From positions 1 through 39,870 of the forward strand of contig MRSU01001247.1 of NCBI GenBank assembly GCA_008369845.1: a stretch of DNA of 39,870 nucleotides, given 5' to 3'. Within the stretch, counting starts at the first letter, position 1. Every line of letters begins with the position of its first letter. This document shows positions 3,548-39,868 of the stretch, piece by piece. The notes under the pieces were generated by a model. It was not told the origin of the DNA and did no database searches. It worked only from the letters and a program-made list of their open reading frames with translations. This stretch comes from Trichomonas gallinae. Taxonomy: Eukaryota. A program made the translations under genes and the position numbers.

Positions 3548-4199
3548 ATGATAATTACATTATTGAAATCTTTAGACACTTCTTATCAAATTTAAATATG
3601 TCATCAGCGAAATCATTAAGCATCATCCAAATGATGCTTCTGAATATGTTGTTGCGTATTATCGTGATAAAAAATCAGATTATTTTCGATTTGGAAAAGA
3701 TTATAACTCAGGACAAGATTCTCCATTAAACACTAGTATAGAATTTTATTTTCCGCATCATAAAGTAATTCCTACAGCATTTATATTTAAAACAAATGGC
3801 GATATATATCCAACTGAATGGACATTTTTAGGATCCTTAGATAATAAAATTTGGGCACAATTAATATATAAAAAAGAGCATATGTGCCCCAAGGAAATGC
3901 GTACATCTTGTACAGGTAGAGTAGGTCATTATAAAGACATTTGTGAAGTGCATGAATTTTCGTTTGACTTCACTAATAACCAGGCCTTTAAATATATTAA
4001 ATTCGTCATGATGCGGGCCTCTTATTATCTAGATGGATGGAAATATACCATCTTTACCAAAGGAATTGAAATTAGTGGTTCATTCACATCATATTTCGAT
4101 TCTCTCGATGGTATATATTTCCATGGAAAATGTGTGTATACTCTTTTCAACATTATCCCATTTATTTTATATGATGATCATCAATCAGCATCTGAATAA
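3548..4199 (+). pseudogene. Frameshifted F5/8 type C (discoidin)-like gene
   Basis: ATG 3548 reads MIITLLKSLDTSYQI*. A second frame is stop-free from about 3576 to 4199 (SIEFYFPHHKVIPTAF...YPTEWTFLGSLDNKIW...AFKYIKFVM). Removing one T from CAAATTTAAATAT (about 3590) joins the two into one ORF of about 216 aa. Confidence 0.65.
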
Positions 4200-4231
4200 A
4201 TAAAAATTATCTAGTATTAGATACTTAAAGT

Positions 4232-4546
4232 ATGCATGAAAATTATGAAGACATAGCAAGCAAAGATCATAACAATCGTAAGAGTTTTGAAAAGGAAATC
4301 AAAGCACGAAGCAAAGAATTGGCTTGAAAAGTCGAAGAAGGTCGTTATGAAGTTGTTAAACTCCTTCTCGCTATTTCAGAGATAGATGTAAACGCAAAAG
4401 ACAATGACAGACAGACAGCCAAAGACTTCGCTTCAGCTAACAATCATCAAAATATCGTTGAACTCTTTCTCGCAGTATCTGTAATGGAAGAATATGCAAT
4501 ACCCGTTTACAATACTGATAATGGTTGTGTATCTCATCCTTATTAA
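4232..4546 (+). pseudogene. Ankyrin-repeat gene fragment with an in-frame TGA
   Basis: ATG 4232 to TGA 4325; the same frame continues GRYEVVKLLLAISEIDVNAKDNDRQTAKDFASANNHQNIVELFL (ankyrin consensus) to TAA 4544-4546. Confidence 0.7.
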
Positions 4547-4585
4547 ATACTTTTTGGGAACAATAATTTGATGTTGGTTCGTATT

Positions 4586-4609
4586 TGACAAGTAAATATT
4601 TACATGACA
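4586..4609. promoter_or_regulatory. Inverted pair of the TTTACAYGWCA-type motif upstream of the 4645 gene
   Basis: TGACAAGTAAA 4586-4596 and TTTACATGACA 4599-4609, about 35 nt before the ATG. Confidence 0.5.
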
Positions 4610-4644
4610 AATAAATGAGGATTTATAATTTTTTATAAAATTTT

Positions 4645-5526
4645 ATGACGTTTTATGCTCAAATTTTATCAACCGAAAACTTTGAGCCCAGACCTTTAAG
4701 GCCTCAGACTTATTTTTTTGGTGCAAATGAAGCTGGTAATAAGCATACTACATATTTTCAAACAGAAGGTCCTGAACCAGATTTCACAACTCTCGCTCTT
4801 CGAGTTAGGAATGTGAAAGATAGCTCAGAAATATGCCTTAGGATTAGCGATGGCGATAATCACTCCAAAAGCATGATTGCATTAATCAAAATTCCAGTTG
4901 CTGCAATTCCGAAAAACAAAAAATGCACAAGAGTCTTCGAATTTTTTAATATCAGAATGTACAGTCAGCCCAAATTCGAGATGATACTTCATTATGATAC
5001 TAGGGGCTCAAGAAAGTTTGAATGCGATGAAGGCGAATTTAATGAAGAAATTTTCGAAGAATGCTACAAGAAACAGAAAGAAATCTACGAAAAGTCACGC
5101 GAAGAAGGTCTTAAAAGGATCCATGAACGTGATGTGGAAAAAATGAAAAGATTCAAGGAGAAATTATTAGCAAAAAAGCGTCAACTAGAAAAGAAACAAG
5201 AGAAAGAAAACGAAGATCAATTAGAAGAAGAAGATTTCTCAGATGATGAATGGGATGATGTGCCAACTGCAGAACTATGCCAAAATCACACGTTCCCACA
5301 ATTCAGACCACCTGATCAAACATTCGTAGTAGAAGAAATTAACTTACACACAATTGCACCTGAATTGAATTCATTAAGATCGAAATACGTACCTCCGCCA
5401 AATGTAACGTTTAGACCACCCACTAATTCACCCTTTTATGCACAACAACCAGCTCCTGTTTTTGCTCCTCCCTCAAATTTACCAACAACTTTGTTTTCAC
5501 AGCCCGTTAACACGGGAATCTATTAG
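4645..5526 (+). CDS. Hypothetical protein: C2-like beta-rich N-terminus, coiled coil, acidic and Pro-rich tail
   Basis: 293-aa ORF. 'EICLRISDGDNHSKSMIALIKIPVAAIP' resembles a C2-domain strand pattern; K/E-rich coil; the domain call is tentative. Confidence 0.7.
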   Translation: MTFYAQILSTENFEPRPLRPQTYFFGANEAGNKHTTYFQTEGPEPDFTTLALRVRNVKDSSEICLRISDGDNHSKSMIALIKIPVAAIPKNKKCTRVFEFFNIRMYSQPKFEMILHYDTRGSRKFECDEGEFNEEIFEECYKKQKEIYEKSREEGLKRIHERDVEKMKRFKEKLLAKKRQLEKKQEKENEDQLEEEDFSDDEWDDVPTAELCQNHTFPQFRPPDQTFVVEEINLHTIAPELNSLRSKYVPPPNVTFRPPTNSPFYAQQPAPVFAPPSNLPTTLFSQPVNTGIY

Positions 5527-5613
5527 TAAACATTATCATGCATCTATCCCTTTAATAACTCATTATTTCGATTTTTTTTTACATTAATGTCACTTTTTGT
5601 TCACTTTTTAATT

Positions 5614-5676
5614 TTTACGTGTCAGAAATATTTCTATATCTGACATGTAAAATAATCGATCTGACATAGTGTCAGA
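5614..5676. promoter_or_regulatory. Promoter-like TGACA motif cluster (two inverted repeats) upstream of the putative non-coding host gene
   Basis: TTTACGTGTCAGAAATA / TATATCTGACATGTAAA imperfect inverted repeat (5614-5651), then CTGACA-TAG-TGTCAG. It lies between convergent protein genes, so it has no coding gene to serve. Confidence 0.5.
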
Positions 5677-5762
5677 GATCCTTTTTCTAGCCAAACTAGA
5701 ATAATTTGAGACACATTTTCGGTTTGGTCTGACACTTTTTAAAAAAGTAACAAGAAAGAAGC

Positions 5763-5899
5763 GTATGTATCGATAAGTTCTTTGATTGATATTGCTATGG
5801 GGATCAAGATGAGTCTTGCTGTCTATTATGATAACAACGCACGTTTGCTGAGCAAATCAACAAAGAACAAAAAAAAAAATAAAATAAACTAACACACAG
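5763..5899 (+). other. Spliceosomal intron (137 nt) of the trichomonad long type
   Basis: 5' splice site GTATGT at 5763-5768 and the exact 12-nt fused branch point/3' splice site ACTAACACACAG at 5888-5899. Confidence 0.85.
5792..5855 (+). ncRNA. Candidate intronic box C/D snoRNA
   Basis: TTGC stem, degenerate box C ATGGGGA (5797-5803), 15-nt segment, D'-like CTGT (5819), C'-like ATGATAA (5828), 13-nt segment, box D CTGA (5848-5851), GCAA stem. An extended outer stem spans 5777-5795 / 5852-5868. Confidence 0.6.
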
Positions 5900-6005
5900 A
5901 GTTTTCAAACTTCTTAATTCTACTTAGAATTTATTACTTTAGCTCGAACCACCAGTCTCCTTTATTAAAAGAGTAAAATTTATTGAAAAAATACAAAACA
6001 TTTTT

Positions 6006-6548
6006 TTATTCATCTATTAGCCGCTCTAGTTCTTCATCATATTCTACCTTTTCTGGGACTTTAACATCGAAGTCTAATAATTCATCTATAAAATTTGGGA
6101 TAATGCTGCCAATATATTTGTCTATTTCGACCTTGGCTTCTTCTTTAGTCATTGTTGAAAGAGTTTTCATGATTAAAGAATATATAACTTGATTTTCAAT
6201 TCCATATGAATATAACAAGCCCCAAACTCTATGTGGGATATACTCCCAAAGTTTAGCAAGTCTTTTTTGCCATCCTTCCTTTGGATTTGGCTTTTGAAAA
6301 TTTCCAAAATTAATTTGTGGTGGAGATTTGATGACAATTTTCCTTTTTATACCTCCCTTTCTTTCCCTTCCATAAGCATATTCTACTTTTGATCGGCAAA
6401 TTGGACACGTTTCCCCATGAGTTGCAAACCAAACAGAAAGGCAATCGAAACAAACTTTGTGCTGGCATGGATCGATAAGAAGGATGTTGTCTTTCTTCAT
6501 CGTGCAAATCAAACAATGTCTTTTTTTGATTTTTGAATTTGATTCCAA
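6006..6548 (-). CDS. C3HC4 RING E3 ubiquitin ligase, TOPORS-like; apparent TTG start
   Basis: CLIC...PCQHKVCFDC...CPIC RING; the C-terminal 'IDKYIGSIIPNFIDELLDF' resembles the TOPORS-like helical domain. The first in-frame ATG (6500) is downstream of the first two zinc ligands. Confidence 0.75.
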   Translation of the reverse strand: MESNSKIKKRHCLICTMKKDNILLIDPCQHKVCFDCLSVWFATHGETCPICRSKVEYAYGRERKGGIKRKIVIKSPPQINFGNFQKPNPKEGWQKRLAKLWEYIPHRVWGLLYSYGIENQVIYSLIMKTLSTMTKEEAKVEIDKYIGSIIPNFIDELLDFDVKVPEKVEYDEELERLIDE

Positions 6549-10408: not shown

Positions 10409-10438
10409 TCAAGAACAAAAATTGTCAAAAATTTGATA

Positions 10439-10504
10439 TTTACATGTCAGATTATATTTACATGACAAAATATTATTTACACGTCAAAATGTGTTTACAT
10501 GACA
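10439..10504 (+). promoter_or_regulatory. Four direct copies of TTTACAYGWCA in a 123-bp divergent promoter
   Basis: Copies at 10439, 10457, 10476 and 10494 (spacing 18, 19, 18). Confidence 0.7.
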
Positions 10505-10531
10505 AATTTTTTACGACACGTTTTTTAAAAA

Positions 10532-11236: not shown

Positions 11237-11334
11237 TTTGTTTTTTTCTATGAGCGTATCAGAGTCAAACAGCTAACATTCTTAGTTAAACTATATATAC
11301 ACTGAGTTTTTGTTCCTCAAAATTCATAGAATCA

Positions 11335-11565
11335 ATGCTACCTAATATGGACGAAGAATTTAACATCGAACAATAATATATCACTCTTATTATTACAGGC
11401 ATTGAATTTGCTCATTCATAAATATCAGCCCCTAAAATATTTCTGAATATTTTTCAATTGCAAGTTTAGAGATATATGCTTCCAAATCTATGCGACTATT
11501 CATAAATAACTCGCTAAAGAGTTAGTAATGCAATATATTAATAAAATGGATCCATAGAGTTATCT
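11335..11565 (+). pseudogene. Possible protein-kinase relic
   Basis: One frame reads ...YITLIITGIEFAHS*ISAPKIFLNIFQLQV*RYMLPNLCDYS..., matching the spacing of kinase subdomains VIa to VII (G+.Y+HS ... PkIcDFG), with several stops. Confidence 0.35.
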
Positions 11566-11586
11566 TTAAATGAAATCGTATTTTTT

Positions 11587-11626
11587 TGTCACGTAAATCG
11601 TCATTATCGTGTTTTTGTCATGTAAA
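11587..11626 (-). promoter_or_regulatory. Two copies of the TTTACRTGACA motif upstream of the 11770 gene
   Basis: TGTCACGTAAA 11587-11597 and TGTCATGTAAA 11616-11626 on the + strand; further TGACA/TGTCA half sites up to about 11715. Confidence 0.5.
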
Positions 11627-11769
11627 ATATCAAATTCTCGACTTTTTGAGAATAAAACGATCAAATTTTCGGAATTGACAAATTATTTGTCAAAAGCATT
11701 CAATTTTTTTGACAGTCCGTTAAAAAGCAACAGAAAATTTAGAAAATTTTAGTCGAAAATAAAACAGAA

Positions 11770-17925: not shown

Positions 17926-19095
17926 TTATTCTTCACCAAAAACGATTCCGAGTTCTCTAGCAGCGGATTCTGGAGCATCAGAGCCATGACACAAGTTCTC
18001 TGTTGTGCTTCTCGCGTACAATGCGCGGAGTGAGTTCGGGGCCTGTTCTACTGCGACCTCCTTCTTTGTTGGGCCGATTATCTGCCTCCACCTCTGGATC
18101 GCGTCTGGGCCGACGAGCTCGAGGCCGACGACTGTGTCCGATGTCATGTAGCCCGATAATGTTGGGAAGAAGTCCTTTCCGACGTGTTCTGCGTAGAACT
18201 TCTCTGCGAAGGCCTGGTCCATCTTGAAAGTCTTCAGTCTCTCGATCTTGAGGCCCTCCTGGATGATGCGGTCGATGACCTTGCCCCAGAACTCCTCGTA
18301 GCCAGGCTTGATCATGGCGTATGTGTGCTGGTCTGGCTCTCTGAAGAGCTCGCCCTCGTAAATTCCGTTTCCGAAGTAGCAATTTGCAAATTCTGTGTCG
18401 GAGAGGGAGAAGATGAAGCCTGGCCAGTTGACTGAGCGGAGCTGGACTTCATTTGGATCGCTTGTTTCGACAACACGCCATCCCTTGAGATCTGTTAATG
18501 GTTCTGTGAAATCTAATGCTGGATTTGAGAATGCCTTCTCGAGTGGTGTGAGTGGCTTCTCTCTTGGCGTCCAGTGCCTGAAATTGGAAAGATCGCTGCA
18601 ATCTTTGATTGGGATGCCAGACCACATTGGATTTGTAAGGACATAGTCAAGTGCTGTCTCGCAGAGGTATCCTCTTGGGAAAAGAATGCAGTTATCGAGA
18701 AGATCGAAAACTATTGAAGAAAGTCTCTGTTCTTCGCTGACATGGCGGCCTGATGGTGTGTCGAACTCAGAGATGAGGCTGCCCGTGAGTGGTAATGAGA
18801 TTTGAATAGCTTCTTTGAGAAGAGCATCTTCGACTCTTGGTAAAGTATTCCAAGAAGTGGCGTCTCTCGAGCAATAAAAGTTTGTTGGGTAGTAGTAATT
18901 TGTTTCTGTTGAGAATGCGATGTAATAATCCTTATTAATGGCAAGAATCTTGCCCAAGAAATACATAGCCTCAGACTTCGTTTGATTTTGGAGCATTCTT
19001 AAGGAGCACTCGATTTTGTGTGCCTCTATCTGCGAGATGTTGCAGCCCTGATTAGGGATACGCTCGATGAGGTTACGGAGTTGTCCAATCTCCAT
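17926..19095 (-). CDS. Fusion of a radial spoke head protein 9 (RSPH9)-like domain and a nucleoside diphosphate kinase domain
   Basis: RSPH9 motifs FLGKILAINKDYYIA, EEQRLSSIV, PRG, LRSVNWPGF...CYFGNG, then NDK TYAMIKP...FYAEHVGKDFF...WRQIIGP...NLCHGSDAPESAARE. The ORF extends to ATG 19158, but 19095 (MEIGQL) fits the RSPH9 N-terminus better. Confidence 0.85.
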   Translation of the reverse strand: MEIGQLRNLIERIPNQGCNISQIEAHKIECSLRMLQNQTKSEAMYFLGKILAINKDYYIAFSTETNYYYPTNFYCSRDATSWNTLPRVEDALLKEAIQISLPLTGSLISEFDTPSGRHVSEEQRLSSIVFDLLDNCILFPRGYLCETALDYVLTNPMWSGIPIKDCSDLSNFRHWTPREKPLTPLEKAFSNPALDFTEPLTDLKGWRVVETSDPNEVQLRSVNWPGFIFSLSDTEFANCYFGNGIYEGELFREPDQHTYAMIKPGYEEFWGKVIDRIIQEGLKIERLKTFKMDQAFAEKFYAEHVGKDFFPTLSGYMTSDTVVGLELVGPDAIQRWRQIIGPTKKEVAVEQAPNSLRALYARSTTENLCHGSDAPESAARELGIVFGEE

Positions 19096-19124
19096 GCTAA
19101 CTAATTCTAACGTATTTTTCGGCC

Positions 19125-19582
19125 GACATGTGACATGAATTTTCTTTTCATTACTCATTTTTTATTATTTATAATGCTATATTTTTGTTTATAAAATGAT
19201 AATTTCTTATTTTTATCTGTTGAAAATGAGTATTTTGTGGTGAAATAGATTTTTGACACATGACATGTGATGTGAATTTACTATTCTTTCTCTGTTTTTT
19301 AATACTAATATCAATGTCTTATGATTTGCAAAGTTATAATTTACTTTTTTATTTTGTTGAAAATAAATATTTTGCAGTGATTTGAAGATTTGACATCAGA
19401 CATGTGATATGAATTATAAAAATTAATATAGTAATTTTATTCGATATATAAATTATATATGTAAAAAAAATTAAATATTGAAATTTTGTTGCTTGAAATT
19501 AAGTTCTCTATCGAGATATTGAAATTTGACAAGTGACATGTGATATGATAATTTGTTTTTGAAGTAATGACATGTGATGTGA
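19125..19582. repeat. Diverged ~137-bp tandem repeat carrying a conserved GACATGTGAYRTGA core
   Basis: Core at 19125, 19262, 19399, 19535 (periods 137, 137, 136) plus an extra copy at 19569; units 1 and 2 also align outside the core. Confidence 0.8.
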
Positions 19583-30173: not shown

Positions 30174-30245
30174 TGGTTCTGCCAGGAGTCGAACCTGGAT
30201 TTCGGGATTCAAAGTCCCAAGTGATAACCGCTACACTACAGAACC
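30174..30245 (-). tRNA. tRNA-Gln (UUG)
   Basis: GGTTCTG/CAGAACC acceptor stem; anticodon arm TGGGA-CTTTGAA-TCCCG; T arm CCAGG-TTCGACT-CCTGG; T5 terminator downstream. Confidence 0.97.
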
Positions 30246-33130: not shown

Positions 33131-33340
33131 TAGAAATTTATGAATATAAATTAAATCCATTCATATTAAAAGCATATAGAATAAAATTATCAAGAAAACA
33201 AAGTTTAAAATTCATTATTCAAATTTTGAAAAATTAATTAATGTTATTTTTCAAAAATTTTGTTGCTAAATGATATATTTTAATTGCAAAACACTAATGA
33301 TATGATTTATTTATCAAATTAAACATTTGACACAGATTAT

Positions 33341-33557
33341 TTTACATGACAAAATTATTTTTGAAAAATTTACATGTCATTTTATAATGTAAATCTTTGA
33401 ATTTATATTTTTCATATATTTACATGACAAAAATGATTTTGAATGTATTTACGTGCTATTTTTGTCATGTAAATTTTTGAATATTAATTTTGTAAATAAT
33501 TTACATGACAGAAATGATTTTTAAATTTGTGTTTTGAGATTTTCGTTTTTACGTGAT
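33341..33557. repeat. ~80-bp tandem repeat (about 2.5 units) rich in TTTACATGACA motifs in the WIPI/DDB1-like divergent promoter
   Basis: TTTACATGACA at 33341, 33419, 33500 (periods 78, 81); further variants near 33369, 33448, 33463 (inverted) and 33548. Confidence 0.75.
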
Positions 33558-33598
33558 ATTTTCGTTGTTTGCAAACATTTGGCTTCAAAATTTTCTTG

Positions 33599-39795: not shown

Positions 39796-39868
39796 GGTTT
39801 CGTAGCTCAGTAGGTAGAGCGTAGTGCTGATAACGCTAAGGTCTTGGGTTCGAGCCCCAGCGGAACCA
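39796..39868 (+). tRNA. tRNA-Ile (GAU)
   Basis: GGTTTCG/CGGAACC acceptor stem; D arm GCTC/GAGC; anticodon arm TAGTG-CTGATAA-CGCTA; T arm TTGGG-TTCGAGC-CCCAG; discriminator A. Confidence 0.96.

What the first reader, a model, noticed from the sequence alone, without database searches (positions are those of the whole stretch)
5730..5980. Spliceosomal intron in an apparently non-coding gene: a snoRNA host-gene system in an intron-poor trichomonad
Seen: between two convergent protein genes lies GTATGT (5763) ... ACTAACACACAG (5888-5899), a 137-nt intron with exact trichomonad splice signals. Neither flanking exon has an ATG, so the spliced product appears non-coding. Promoter-type motifs (5614-5676, AAAGTAAC at 5744) precede it and TAAA/AATT 3'-end-like signals follow it. 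Known: T. vaginalis has only a few dozen introns, described in protein-coding genes and sharing this 12-nt motif; non-coding hosts spliced to release snoRNAs (GAS5/UHG type) are known from other eukaryotes. Inference: this is a minimal host gene whose functional product is the intron. ORF-based annotation would miss it. I cannot confirm it is undescribed.
Basis: partly seen in the sequence, partly recalled or inferred. Interest (0 to 1): 0.92.

Follow-up and report, generated by a model that had tools for sequence, protein, structure and literature searches.

The report
Trichomonad "inactive" introns carry snoRNAs
An intron-shaped stretch between two protein genes of a Trichomonas-type parasite holds a predicted rRNA-methylation guide RNA whose guide matches ribosomal RNA exactly, and most long introns published as "inactive" in Trichomonas vaginalis look the same, so these are likely tiny non-coding genes that would be spliced only to release guide RNAs.

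Summary
In detail: exact type A splice signals bound 137 nt (5763-5899) in an ORF-free gap between convergent genes. An 18-bp stem encloses a box C/D unit. Its D' guide (5808-5817) is 10/10 complementary to trichomonad-type LSU rRNA in 10 of 10 loci, including a lineage-specific base.

Orthologues sit in a published table of unsupported introns: T. vaginalis row 2 and T. stableri row 17. Their cores are 50/55 and 51/55 identical, with compensatory stem changes (by eye).

The pattern is class-wide. 17 of 20 T. vaginalis and 16 of 17 T. stableri unsupported type A introns carry an rRNA-antisense element next to a D'-like box (14 rows by text search; 19 by eye). The authors left these introns unexplained.

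Splicing and transcription are not shown. A 2008 paper mentions T. vaginalis intronic snoRNAs as unpublished data; a 2011 paper calls them highly unlikely. This scan noted such hosts in other eukaryotes but not in trichomonads.

Verdict: a new variant of the GAS5/UHG-type host, interest 0.72.

The parts
4645..5526 (+). Upstream neighbour: complete 293-aa protein gene, homologue of T. vaginalis TVAG_120300 (context, not part of the unit)
   Evidence: 49% identity over 95% of the query; C-termini end together. 17 of the 25 X1 differences listed inside the ORF fall in third codon positions.
5527..5530 (+). TAAA directly after the stop codon: likely poly(A) signal of the upstream mRNA
   Evidence: Sequence; UAAA lies about 10-30 nt before transcript ends in PMC13548475. 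Function inferred.
5613..5735 (.). Cluster of TGTCA/TGACA elements, including an 18-nt inverted pair at 5613-5652: predicted Pol II promoter region of the host unit
   Evidence: The longer form of the element occurs in 2 divergent and 3 tandem gaps and in this one, but in none of the 6 other convergent gaps. Inverted pair. Shared with several other X1 contigs. Function inferred.
5733..5762 (+). Predicted short exon 1: Inr-like core at 5733, M2-like motif at 5744; start site not mapped, further Inr matches at 5590 and 5601
   Evidence: Motif positions; Inr consensus from PMC4450334. Inferred.
5763..5769 (+). 5' splice site GTATGTA
   Evidence: Sequence; the first 7 nt are identical in both orthologues.
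5777..5796 (+). 5' arm of the 18-bp outer stem
   Evidence: Pair probabilities 0.93-1.0; intron fold z = -2.46; changes on both sides in the orthologues, by eye.
5797..5803 (+). Box C-like element ATGGGGA (two departures from RUGAUGA, one at the kink-turn GA)
   Evidence: Position; invariant in three species; consensus recalled.
5808..5817 (+). D' guide, predicted to direct 2'-O-methylation of an LSU adenosine (L007 3610; Rfam RF02543 position 930)
   Evidence: 10/10 Watson-Crick match in 10 of 10 rDNA loci, 0 of 10 on the antisense strand; chance 0.005 at a fixed position. Present in both orthologues.
5819..5822 (+). Box D' (CTGT, degenerate)
   Evidence: Position; invariant in three species.
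5828..5834 (+). Box C' (ATGATAA)
   Evidence: Position; invariant in three species, while the loop before it varies.
5835..5847 (+). D-side element; may pair with the rRNA strand just 5' of the D' target (accessory pairing), no clean methylation target
   Evidence: The duplex with the adjacent site ranks third, -11.0 kcal/mol, with a mismatch at D+5. 12 of 13 nt conserved.
5848..5851 (+). Box D (CTGA), 41 nt before the branch A
   Evidence: invariant in three species.
5851..5868 (+). 3' arm of the outer stem
5888..5899 (+). Fused branch point and 3' splice site ACTAACACACAG (branch A predicted at 5892)
   Evidence: Only exact match in the window; motif as in PMC12316389.
5900..5990 (+). Predicted non-coding exon 2; 3' end not mapped
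   Evidence: No ATG up to 6005; TAAA at 5966 and 5974. Inferred.
6006..6500 (-). Downstream neighbour: RING-finger protein gene on the opposite strand (context)
   Evidence: Pfam zf-RING_2, E 1e-07.

Best explanation
The 137-nt stretch has exact trichomonad splice signals and holds a predicted box C/D methylation-guide snoRNA, and it is likely the single intron of a short non-coding transcript that would be spliced only to release this RNA. Mechanism: (1) Pol II would start near 5734 from the upstream element cluster (inferred). (2) The 18-bp stem brings the splice sites to an effective distance of 45 nt (fold computed; need for it inferred from PMC6679479). (3) The spliceosome would excise the lariat; after debranching, exonucleases would trim to the protein-bound C/D core, about 5792-5855 (inferred from the vertebrate and yeast pathway, recalled). 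(4) The joined exons, roughly 100-130 nt if the nearer start is used and with no reading frame, would be degraded, which would explain the missing RNA-seq support (inferred). (5) The D' guide pairs 10/10 with LSU rRNA (shown on related rDNA), and fibrillarin would methylate the adenosine opposite T5814 (predicted by the recalled +5 rule). The same design would account for most unsupported type A introns of T. vaginalis and T. stableri.
For: Exact, unique splice motifs in an ORF-free gap. Guide match 10/10 in 10 of 10 rDNA loci from 9 contigs, ending 2 nt before box D'; chance 0.005 at that position. Guide G5811 pairs with a C where the Rfam eukaryote consensus has A. Orthologues in two species keep both splice signals and all four boxes; by eye the cores are 50/55 and 51/55 identical and two stem pairs change on both sides, while the neighbouring protein is only 49-52% identical to T. 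vaginalis. Class pattern: 17 of 20 T. vaginalis and 16 of 17 T. stableri unsupported type A rows have an rRNA-antisense element of 10-13 nt beside a D'-like box. A bird-metagenome trichomonad has a near-identical core (2 differences and 1 gap in 114 nt) and a second intron end preceded by another C'/D core. Promoter-type elements lie in a gap where no protein gene starts. PMC2588526 states that T. vaginalis intronic snoRNAs appear to lack TMG caps, as unpublished data.
Against: No spliced read or transcript was seen here. The T. vaginalis orthologue is listed 'No RNAseq evidence' and the T. stableri one 'Not assembled, Low coverage'. A long-read study validated 17 of 49 motif candidates, all described as gene models, and a search of its tables for these loci found nothing. 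Wang 2018 called the intergenic introns non-transcribed on EST data. Box C and box D' are non-canonical at kink-turn positions. No Rfam snoRNA family matches. The D-side element has no clean target. The rRNA used comes from unnamed trichomonad-type loci, not from this organism. 7 of the 17 T. stableri type A rows are marked as overlapping gene models. Long trichomonad introns form stems anyway, so the stem alone is no sign of a snoRNA. No control set of validated coding introns could be read.
Confidence: 0.76

Rival explanations
1. The snoRNA is real, but splicing is not completed or not needed. The spliceosome would only cut or mark the precursor, or the RNA would be made from its own promoter and trimmed, with the splice signals as leftovers.
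For: There is no junction evidence for the T. vaginalis orthologue, and 14 of its 18 canonical type A rows are listed 'No RNAseq evidence'. A promoter-like cluster lies within about 200 nt of box C. Exon 1 would be very short.
Against: Both the 7-nt donor and the full 12-nt branch/acceptor, including the final AG, are kept in three species and in all 18 canonical T. vaginalis rows; leftovers would decay. Four T. vaginalis and eight T. stableri type A snoRNA-like rows are listed as low coverage rather than as lacking reads or junctions.
Confidence: 0.12
2. The intron lies in a long 3' UTR of the mRNA of ORF 4645-5526, so the host is a protein-coding gene.
For: Same strand, 237 nt after the stop codon. 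One 3'-UTR intron is validated in T. vaginalis. The T. stableri orthologue is listed as near a gene.
Against: TAAA follows the stop codon directly. Promoter-type elements lie between the ORF and the intron. None of the T. vaginalis rows 1-18 carries a remark on a nearby or overlapping gene. An expressed mRNA host should have given junction reads in poly(A) data (inference).
Confidence: 0.08
3. It is a silent remnant intron of a lost gene, or one used only in another life stage (the authors' suggestion in PMC12316389). The stem serves splice-site spacing and the boxes are chance.
For: The authors' own reading. Long trichomonad introns fold into stems. No Rfam hit. Some 10-mer of a shuffled 44-nt core matches rRNA in 12% of shuffles.
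Against: The match sits at the guide position (chance 0.005), is invariant in three species and tracks a lineage-specific rRNA base. 33 of 37 unsupported type A rows of the two species show such a match. The core is far better conserved than the neighbouring protein.
Confidence: 0.04

Closest known systems
Vertebrate non-coding snoRNA host genes, UHG/SNHG1 and GAS5 (recalled; SNHG reviews seen only as search listings)
   Same: Spliced transcript without a useful reading frame; box C/D guide RNA inside an intron and released by splicing; one snoRNA per intron.
   Different: Here one intron and one snoRNA per gene, the whole unit about 250-400 nt, in an intron-poor protist. Box D lies 41 nt from the branch A, closer than the vertebrate optimum as recalled. 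Splicing is not shown here.
Fungal non-coding snoRNA hosts: Candida albicans (Mitrovich et al. 2010, recalled; not held) and Neurospora (named only in a scan note)
   Same: Short non-coding exons around snoRNA-bearing introns in compact genomes.
   Different: A different supergroup. Trichomonad introns have a fused branch/acceptor, and the snoRNA stem would double as the splice-site spacer.
Unsupported ('inactive') type A introns of T. vaginalis and T. stableri (PMC12316389, S3 Table read whole; intergenic introns of PMC6260720, passages and Table S3)
   Same: The window intron is the orthologue of T. vaginalis row 2 and T. stableri row 17.
   Different: Both papers leave them as remnants, non-transcribed or stage-specific. 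The word snoRNA occurs 0 times in either main text; PMC12316389 mentions small nucleolar RNA genes only in general, for 5'-UTR introns.
Eight T. vaginalis box C/D snoRNAs of Chen et al. 2009 (PMC2817412; abstract and passages)
   Same: Compact C/D RNAs, some with the guide near the 5' end, and expression seen in small-RNA reads.
   Different: [quoted passage not shown] The sequences are in a supplement that could not be read, so overlap with this class is open.
Yeast snR60 / human SNORD80, guides for the G in the same LSU segment (identity and numbering recalled; search listing only)
   Same: They bind the same stretch of the large-subunit rRNA; the D-side element here could pair over the equivalent G.
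   Different: The clean guide here is the D' one and points 9 nt further 3' (Rfam position 930). No Rfam similarity. One search listed no paper with a methylated A917.

Membership tests
Trichomonad type A spliceosomal intron | 5' motif GYAYGY, 3' motif RCTAACACAYAG, length about 50-200 nt | tested here: met
   GTATGTA, ACTAACACACAG, 137 nt; definition from PMC12316389.
Trichomonad type A spliceosomal intron | Internal stem that shortens the splice-site distance to about 25-44 nt | tested here: inconclusive
   Free arms of 14 + 31 = 45 nt, 1 nt above the published range.
Trichomonad type A spliceosomal intron | Removed from RNA (junction reads or RT-PCR) | tested here: inconclusive
   No RNA record covered the intron; these runs cannot show absence.
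Box C/D methylation-guide snoRNA | Box D (CUGA) at the 3' end, closed by a terminal stem | tested here: met
   CTGA at 5848-5851; stem pairs at probability 0.93-1.0.
Box C/D methylation-guide snoRNA | Box C (RUGAUGA) able to form the kink-turn with box D | tested here: inconclusive
   ATGGGGA has G for the kink-turn A. It is invariant in three species, and the same G occurs in T. vaginalis row 15 and T. stableri row 10, which have an 11-nt SSU guide. L7Ae/Snu13 binding was not testable.
Box C/D methylation-guide snoRNA | Internal C'/D' pair | tested here: met
   CTGT 5819 and ATGATAA 5828, degenerate but invariant, with a variable loop between them.
Box C/D methylation-guide snoRNA | Antisense element of 10 nt or more to rRNA just 5' of box D or D' | tested here: met
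   10/10 match, 10 of 10 loci; tested on related rDNA, not on this organism's.
Box C/D methylation-guide snoRNA | Accumulates as a small RNA bound to fibrillarin; target is 2'-O-methylated | not testable with these tools
   No small-RNA or modification data were available.
Any Rfam snoRNA family | Covariance-model score at the gathering threshold | tested here: not met
   No hit; only chance-level hits at E up to 10. Not filed under any Rfam family.
Non-coding snoRNA host gene (UHG/GAS5 type) | Exons without a conserved reading frame | tested here: met
   Longest ATG frame in the spliced form is 18 aa; no ATG in exon 2. Both neighbours are complete genes.
Non-coding snoRNA host gene (UHG/GAS5 type) | Own Pol II transcript, separate from neighbouring mRNAs | tested here: inconclusive
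   Promoter-type elements are present; ends are not mapped.
Non-coding snoRNA host gene (UHG/GAS5 type) | snoRNA release depends on splicing | not testable with these tools
   Needs splice-site mutants.
Non-coding snoRNA host gene (UHG/GAS5 type) | Intron core better conserved than the exons | tested here: inconclusive
   In X1 one contig spans 4382-5827 at the 80% setting, yet nothing is laid on 5702-5785 at 84%, while 5798-5912 has 2 differences and 1 gap. Exon 2 is also well kept (4 differences in 5885-5986). Exons of the two Trichomonas orthologues were not available.

The most novel reading that the evidence does not exclude
Trichomonads make most of their box C/D methylation guides from a dispersed set of about 18 one-intron, non-coding genes. 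These hold roughly a third of all long (type A) introns (18 beside 39 validated ones in T. vaginalis). The snoRNA's own stem doubles as the spacer that fits the intron to the fixed-geometry spliceosome, so ribosome modification is a main reason this intron-poor lineage keeps splicing, and the 20-year-old 'orphan' introns are among its most conserved ones.
Probability: 0.5. Interest if true: 0.83.

Novelty: new variant of a known kind. Interest (0 to 1): 0.72.

Why it matters
It would answer a question left open in print in 2025: what the unsupported T. vaginalis introns are. It would also explain the 22 intergenic introns set aside in 2018, though I matched those only by length. [quoted passage not shown]

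It yields about 17 testable rRNA 2'-O-methylation predictions for a major human parasite, and it extends non-coding snoRNA hosts to the parabasalids. It ties retention of the spliceosome in an intron-poor genome to ribosome biogenesis, which simple RT-PCR, Northern and mutant tests can check.

Tried and rejected
No whole genome is held, so no genome-wide scan or own-rRNA test was possible.

Rfam gave no family for the intron. One batch scan of the rDNA loci failed internally; only L007 was annotated, 1 of 10.

No RNA holder was listed. X2, a guessed RNA run, has contigs on 4698-5541 and 6353-6514 and none on the intron; X3 and X4 laid nothing. I take this as no evidence either way, including the X2 contig that stops at 5541.

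The depth spike in X1 at 5842-5897 (up to 21,000) is read as low-complexity A-run matches, not copy number.

The core pattern found 0 matches in metagenome contigs and 0 in genome contigs.

AAGATGA at 5806 was rejected as box C: it overlaps the guide and has no closing stem.

My first idea of a target at the U21/U18 region of the LSU was rejected: that duplex is weaker (-10.8 against -15.6 kcal/mol).

No target of 10 bp with at most one G-U was found for the D-side element. T. vaginalis row 14 and T. stableri row 6 have boxes but no match in L007 by eye.

Sequences of validated coding introns were not in the readable supplements, so that control is missing.

No type B-like intron pattern was found elsewhere in the window.

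Papers not held: Vanacova 2005, Carlton 2007 (81), Simoes-Barbosa 2008 and 2012 in RNA (29, 45, 80, 86), Mitrovich 2010 (96). The Chen 2009 supplement was unreadable (38). These may bear on novelty. Passages of PMC3511168, PMC2904801 and PMC9226516 gave nothing on trichomonad snoRNAs.

Full report
OBSERVATION. The window is trichomonad-like: the gene upstream of the finding has one named homologue, T. vaginalis TVAG_120300, at 49% identity, and a close relative of the region occurs in a bird metagenome. No genome is held. Between ORF 4645-5526 (+) and a RING-finger ORF 6006-6500 (-) lies GTATGTA at 5763 and ACTAACACACAG at 5888-5899, 137 nt. The 3' motif is the only exact match in the window. 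A rough chance for the pair is 2e-4. The spliced form has no ATG frame longer than 18 aa. The upstream ORF is complete: its C-terminus aligns with that of the T. vaginalis protein.

ANATOMY OF THE INTRON. An 18-bp stem (5777-5796 with 5851-5868, pair probabilities 0.93-1.0) closes the interior and leaves free arms of 14 and 31 nt. The fold has z = -2.46, with 3 of 200 shuffles folding as well. Inside lie a C-like box (5797), D' (5819), C' (5828) and D (5848). Rfam has no matching family.

GUIDE TEST. A published trichomonad rDNA primer retrieved 10 rDNA loci from 9 contigs; L007 holds complete SSU, 5.8S and LSU genes. The organisms are not named and are not the window's own. Scanning the whole 55-nt core, the stretch 5808-5817 is a perfect 10-bp complement of one LSU site in 10 of 10 loci, and it occurs on the antisense strand in 0 of 10. 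It ends 2 nt before box D'. Shuffled cores match at that position in 0.5% of trials and at any position in 12%. The target is Rfam LSU positions 927-936; position 933 is C in these loci and A in the eukaryote consensus, and the guide has the matching G. By the recalled +5 rule the methylated base is the A at position 930 (L007 3610), at the edge of a small hairpin. From recalled numbering this is yeast A917; one search listed no paper with that modification. The D-side element has no clean target. Its possible pairing with the strand just 5' of the D' target ranks third (-11.0 kcal/mol) and has a mismatch at D+5, so I read it as possible accessory pairing that would help open the hairpin.

ORTHOLOGUES. 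S3 Table of PMC12316389 lists motif-predicted introns without RNA-seq validation (read whole). T. vaginalis row 2 (chr_I 6200488-6200619, 132 nt, 'No RNAseq evidence') and T. stableri row 17 (129 nt, 'Not assembled, Low coverage') are the only rows with the window's guide. By eye, the cores from box C to box D are 50/55 and 51/55 identical, all boxes and the guide are invariant, and the differences fall mainly in the loop between D' and C'. The outer stem is kept through two changes on both sides and matched indels. In X1 a contig covers 5798-5912 with 2 differences and 1 gap at depth 44 against 26-28 for the flanks, with two different 3' flanks; this suggests two copies in that organism (a weak hint).

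THE CLASS. I compared reverse complements of L007 stretches with the table. Of 20 T. vaginalis type A rows, 18 have the canonical ends, and 17 of these carry a 10-13 nt rRNA-antisense element 0-3 nt before a D'-like box, within a C/D'/C'/D layout. Row 14 has boxes but no match. Rows 27 and 31 have other ends, overlap genes and have no boxes. Of 17 T. stableri type A rows, 16 match; row 6, the counterpart of row 14, does not. Seven rows need one G-U pair (T. vaginalis 3 and 18; T. stableri 11, 13, 16, 19, 20). Fourteen rows for six guides were confirmed by text search; the other 19 rest on comparison by eye, with target sites picked after seeing the guides. The 17 type B rows (23-28 nt) are too short and were not examined. 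The rows fall into about 18 families with SSU and LSU targets; several, as recalled, are in register with conserved sites of yeast snR41, snR56, snR64, snR70 and snR73. An X1 contig that shares only the intron's 3' end carries a C'/D core like rows 8 and 13. In three long rows counted by eye (2, 6, 18) the free arms add up to about 40-46 nt, like the 45 nt here and near the 25-44 nt reported for folded T. vaginalis introns (PMC6679479, passages). I could not read validated coding introns as a control.

HOST TRANSCRIPT. TGTCA/TGACA sites number 6 in this 479-nt gap, 3 in 2,774 nt of the 6 other convergent gaps, 27 in 4,428 nt of divergent and 12 in 2,950 nt of tandem gaps. The longer element occurs in no other convergent gap. 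A promoter-type signature where no protein gene starts suggests a separate transcript. Inr-like cores lie at 5733 and 5714, with full Inr matches at 5590 and 5601 (consensus from PMC4450334, passages). The ends are not mapped. No RNA run covered the intron, which is no evidence either way. Lack of support in the published data is expected if the joined exons are short-lived or lost in extraction or poly(A) selection (inference; column RNA extraction for T. vaginalis and poly(A) cDNA for PCR are described), but it is also the main weakness.

MECHANISM. Shown: motifs, stem, boxes, guide match, conservation. Inferred: Pol II start near 5734, stem-assisted splice-site spacing, lariat release, trimming to about 5792-5855, decay of the exons, methylation of the LSU adenosine. 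Confidence 0.76. Rivals: splicing incomplete or not needed 0.12; 3' UTR of the upstream mRNA 0.08; silent remnant 0.04.

PRIOR ART. PMC12316389 (text parts 1-5 of 7, passages, S3 whole, S2 part 1 of 2) leaves these introns as remnants or stage-specific and has 0 uses of 'snoRNA'. PMC6260720 (passages, two sections, Table S3) set aside 22 of 41 early introns as intergenic and non-transcribed; its table has an unannotated segment with a 132-nt span (length match only). PMC13548475 (abstract, Results, supplement searches) has no snoRNA or non-coding mention. PMC3228867 (parts 1-2 of 5) calls intronic snoRNAs highly unlikely in Trichomonas, and PMC3268645 (passages) says something similar. Against full novelty, PMC2588526 (passages) mentions T. 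vaginalis intronic snoRNAs lacking TMG caps as unpublished data, and PMC2817412 (abstract, passages) reports eight expressed C/D snoRNAs whose sequences I could not see. In searches, no listed title or abstract opening, and no paper I read, describes non-coding snoRNA hosts in trichomonads or links them to the unsupported introns; only the top 2-30 rows of each search were listed. Five older papers were not held. This scan's notes describe such hosts in algae, fungi and a foraminifer, none on this DNA or in trichomonads.

VERDICT. It works like a GAS5/UHG-type host. Membership tests that could be run were met or inconclusive; it is not a member of any Rfam family. The architecture is known from other eukaryotes. 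What is new is the lineage, the one-intron minimal form and the reading of a whole published set of 'inactive' introns as snoRNA carriers. Novelty: new variant of a known kind. Interest 0.72.

Noticed in passing
window 5587-5609: Two TCACTTTT copies read as Inr on the + strand and as M2-like motifs on the - strand; one is followed on the - strand by ATG and an immediate stop. The promoter region may be bidirectional, with an antisense start facing ORF 4645-5526.
   Followed up: no
window 10409-10531, 33161-33598, 11237-11769, 4586-4609, 36841: A TTAC[AG]TG[AT]CA-type element recurs upstream of protein genes, most densely in two divergent gaps. It looks like a general promoter element; I did not match it to a published motif.
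   Followed up: partly
X1 contigs on window 5798-5941: A collapsed contig at depth 44 with two different 3' flanks suggests a second copy of this snoRNA intron in a related bird trichomonad.
   Followed up: partly
X1 14.6-kb contig laid on window 5865-5905: Another type A intron end preceded by a C'/guide/D core like T. vaginalis S3 rows 8 and 13.
   Followed up: partly
window 5880-5888 and 5915: TAAA inside the intron's A-rich 3' spacer lies about 30 nt before a Y-AATT motif in exon 2; unspliced precursor might be cleaved there. Speculative.
   Followed up: no
window 3882-4644: A 105-aa ORF without a Pfam hit is followed by DNA that looks by eye like broken ankyrin-repeat sequence; many X1 contigs pile on 4334-4419. 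Probably a pseudogene.
   Followed up: no
window 30174-30245 (-) and 39796-39868 (+): Two tRNA genes.
   Followed up: no
PMC12316389 S3 Table, T. vaginalis rows 7 and 17: Two different snoRNA-like introns carry the same 10-nt guide to one LSU site (L007 about 5445-5454), recalled as the sarcin-ricin loop.
   Followed up: partly
window 17926-19158 (-): An ORF combines a radial-spokehead-like region with a nucleoside diphosphate kinase domain.
   Followed up: no
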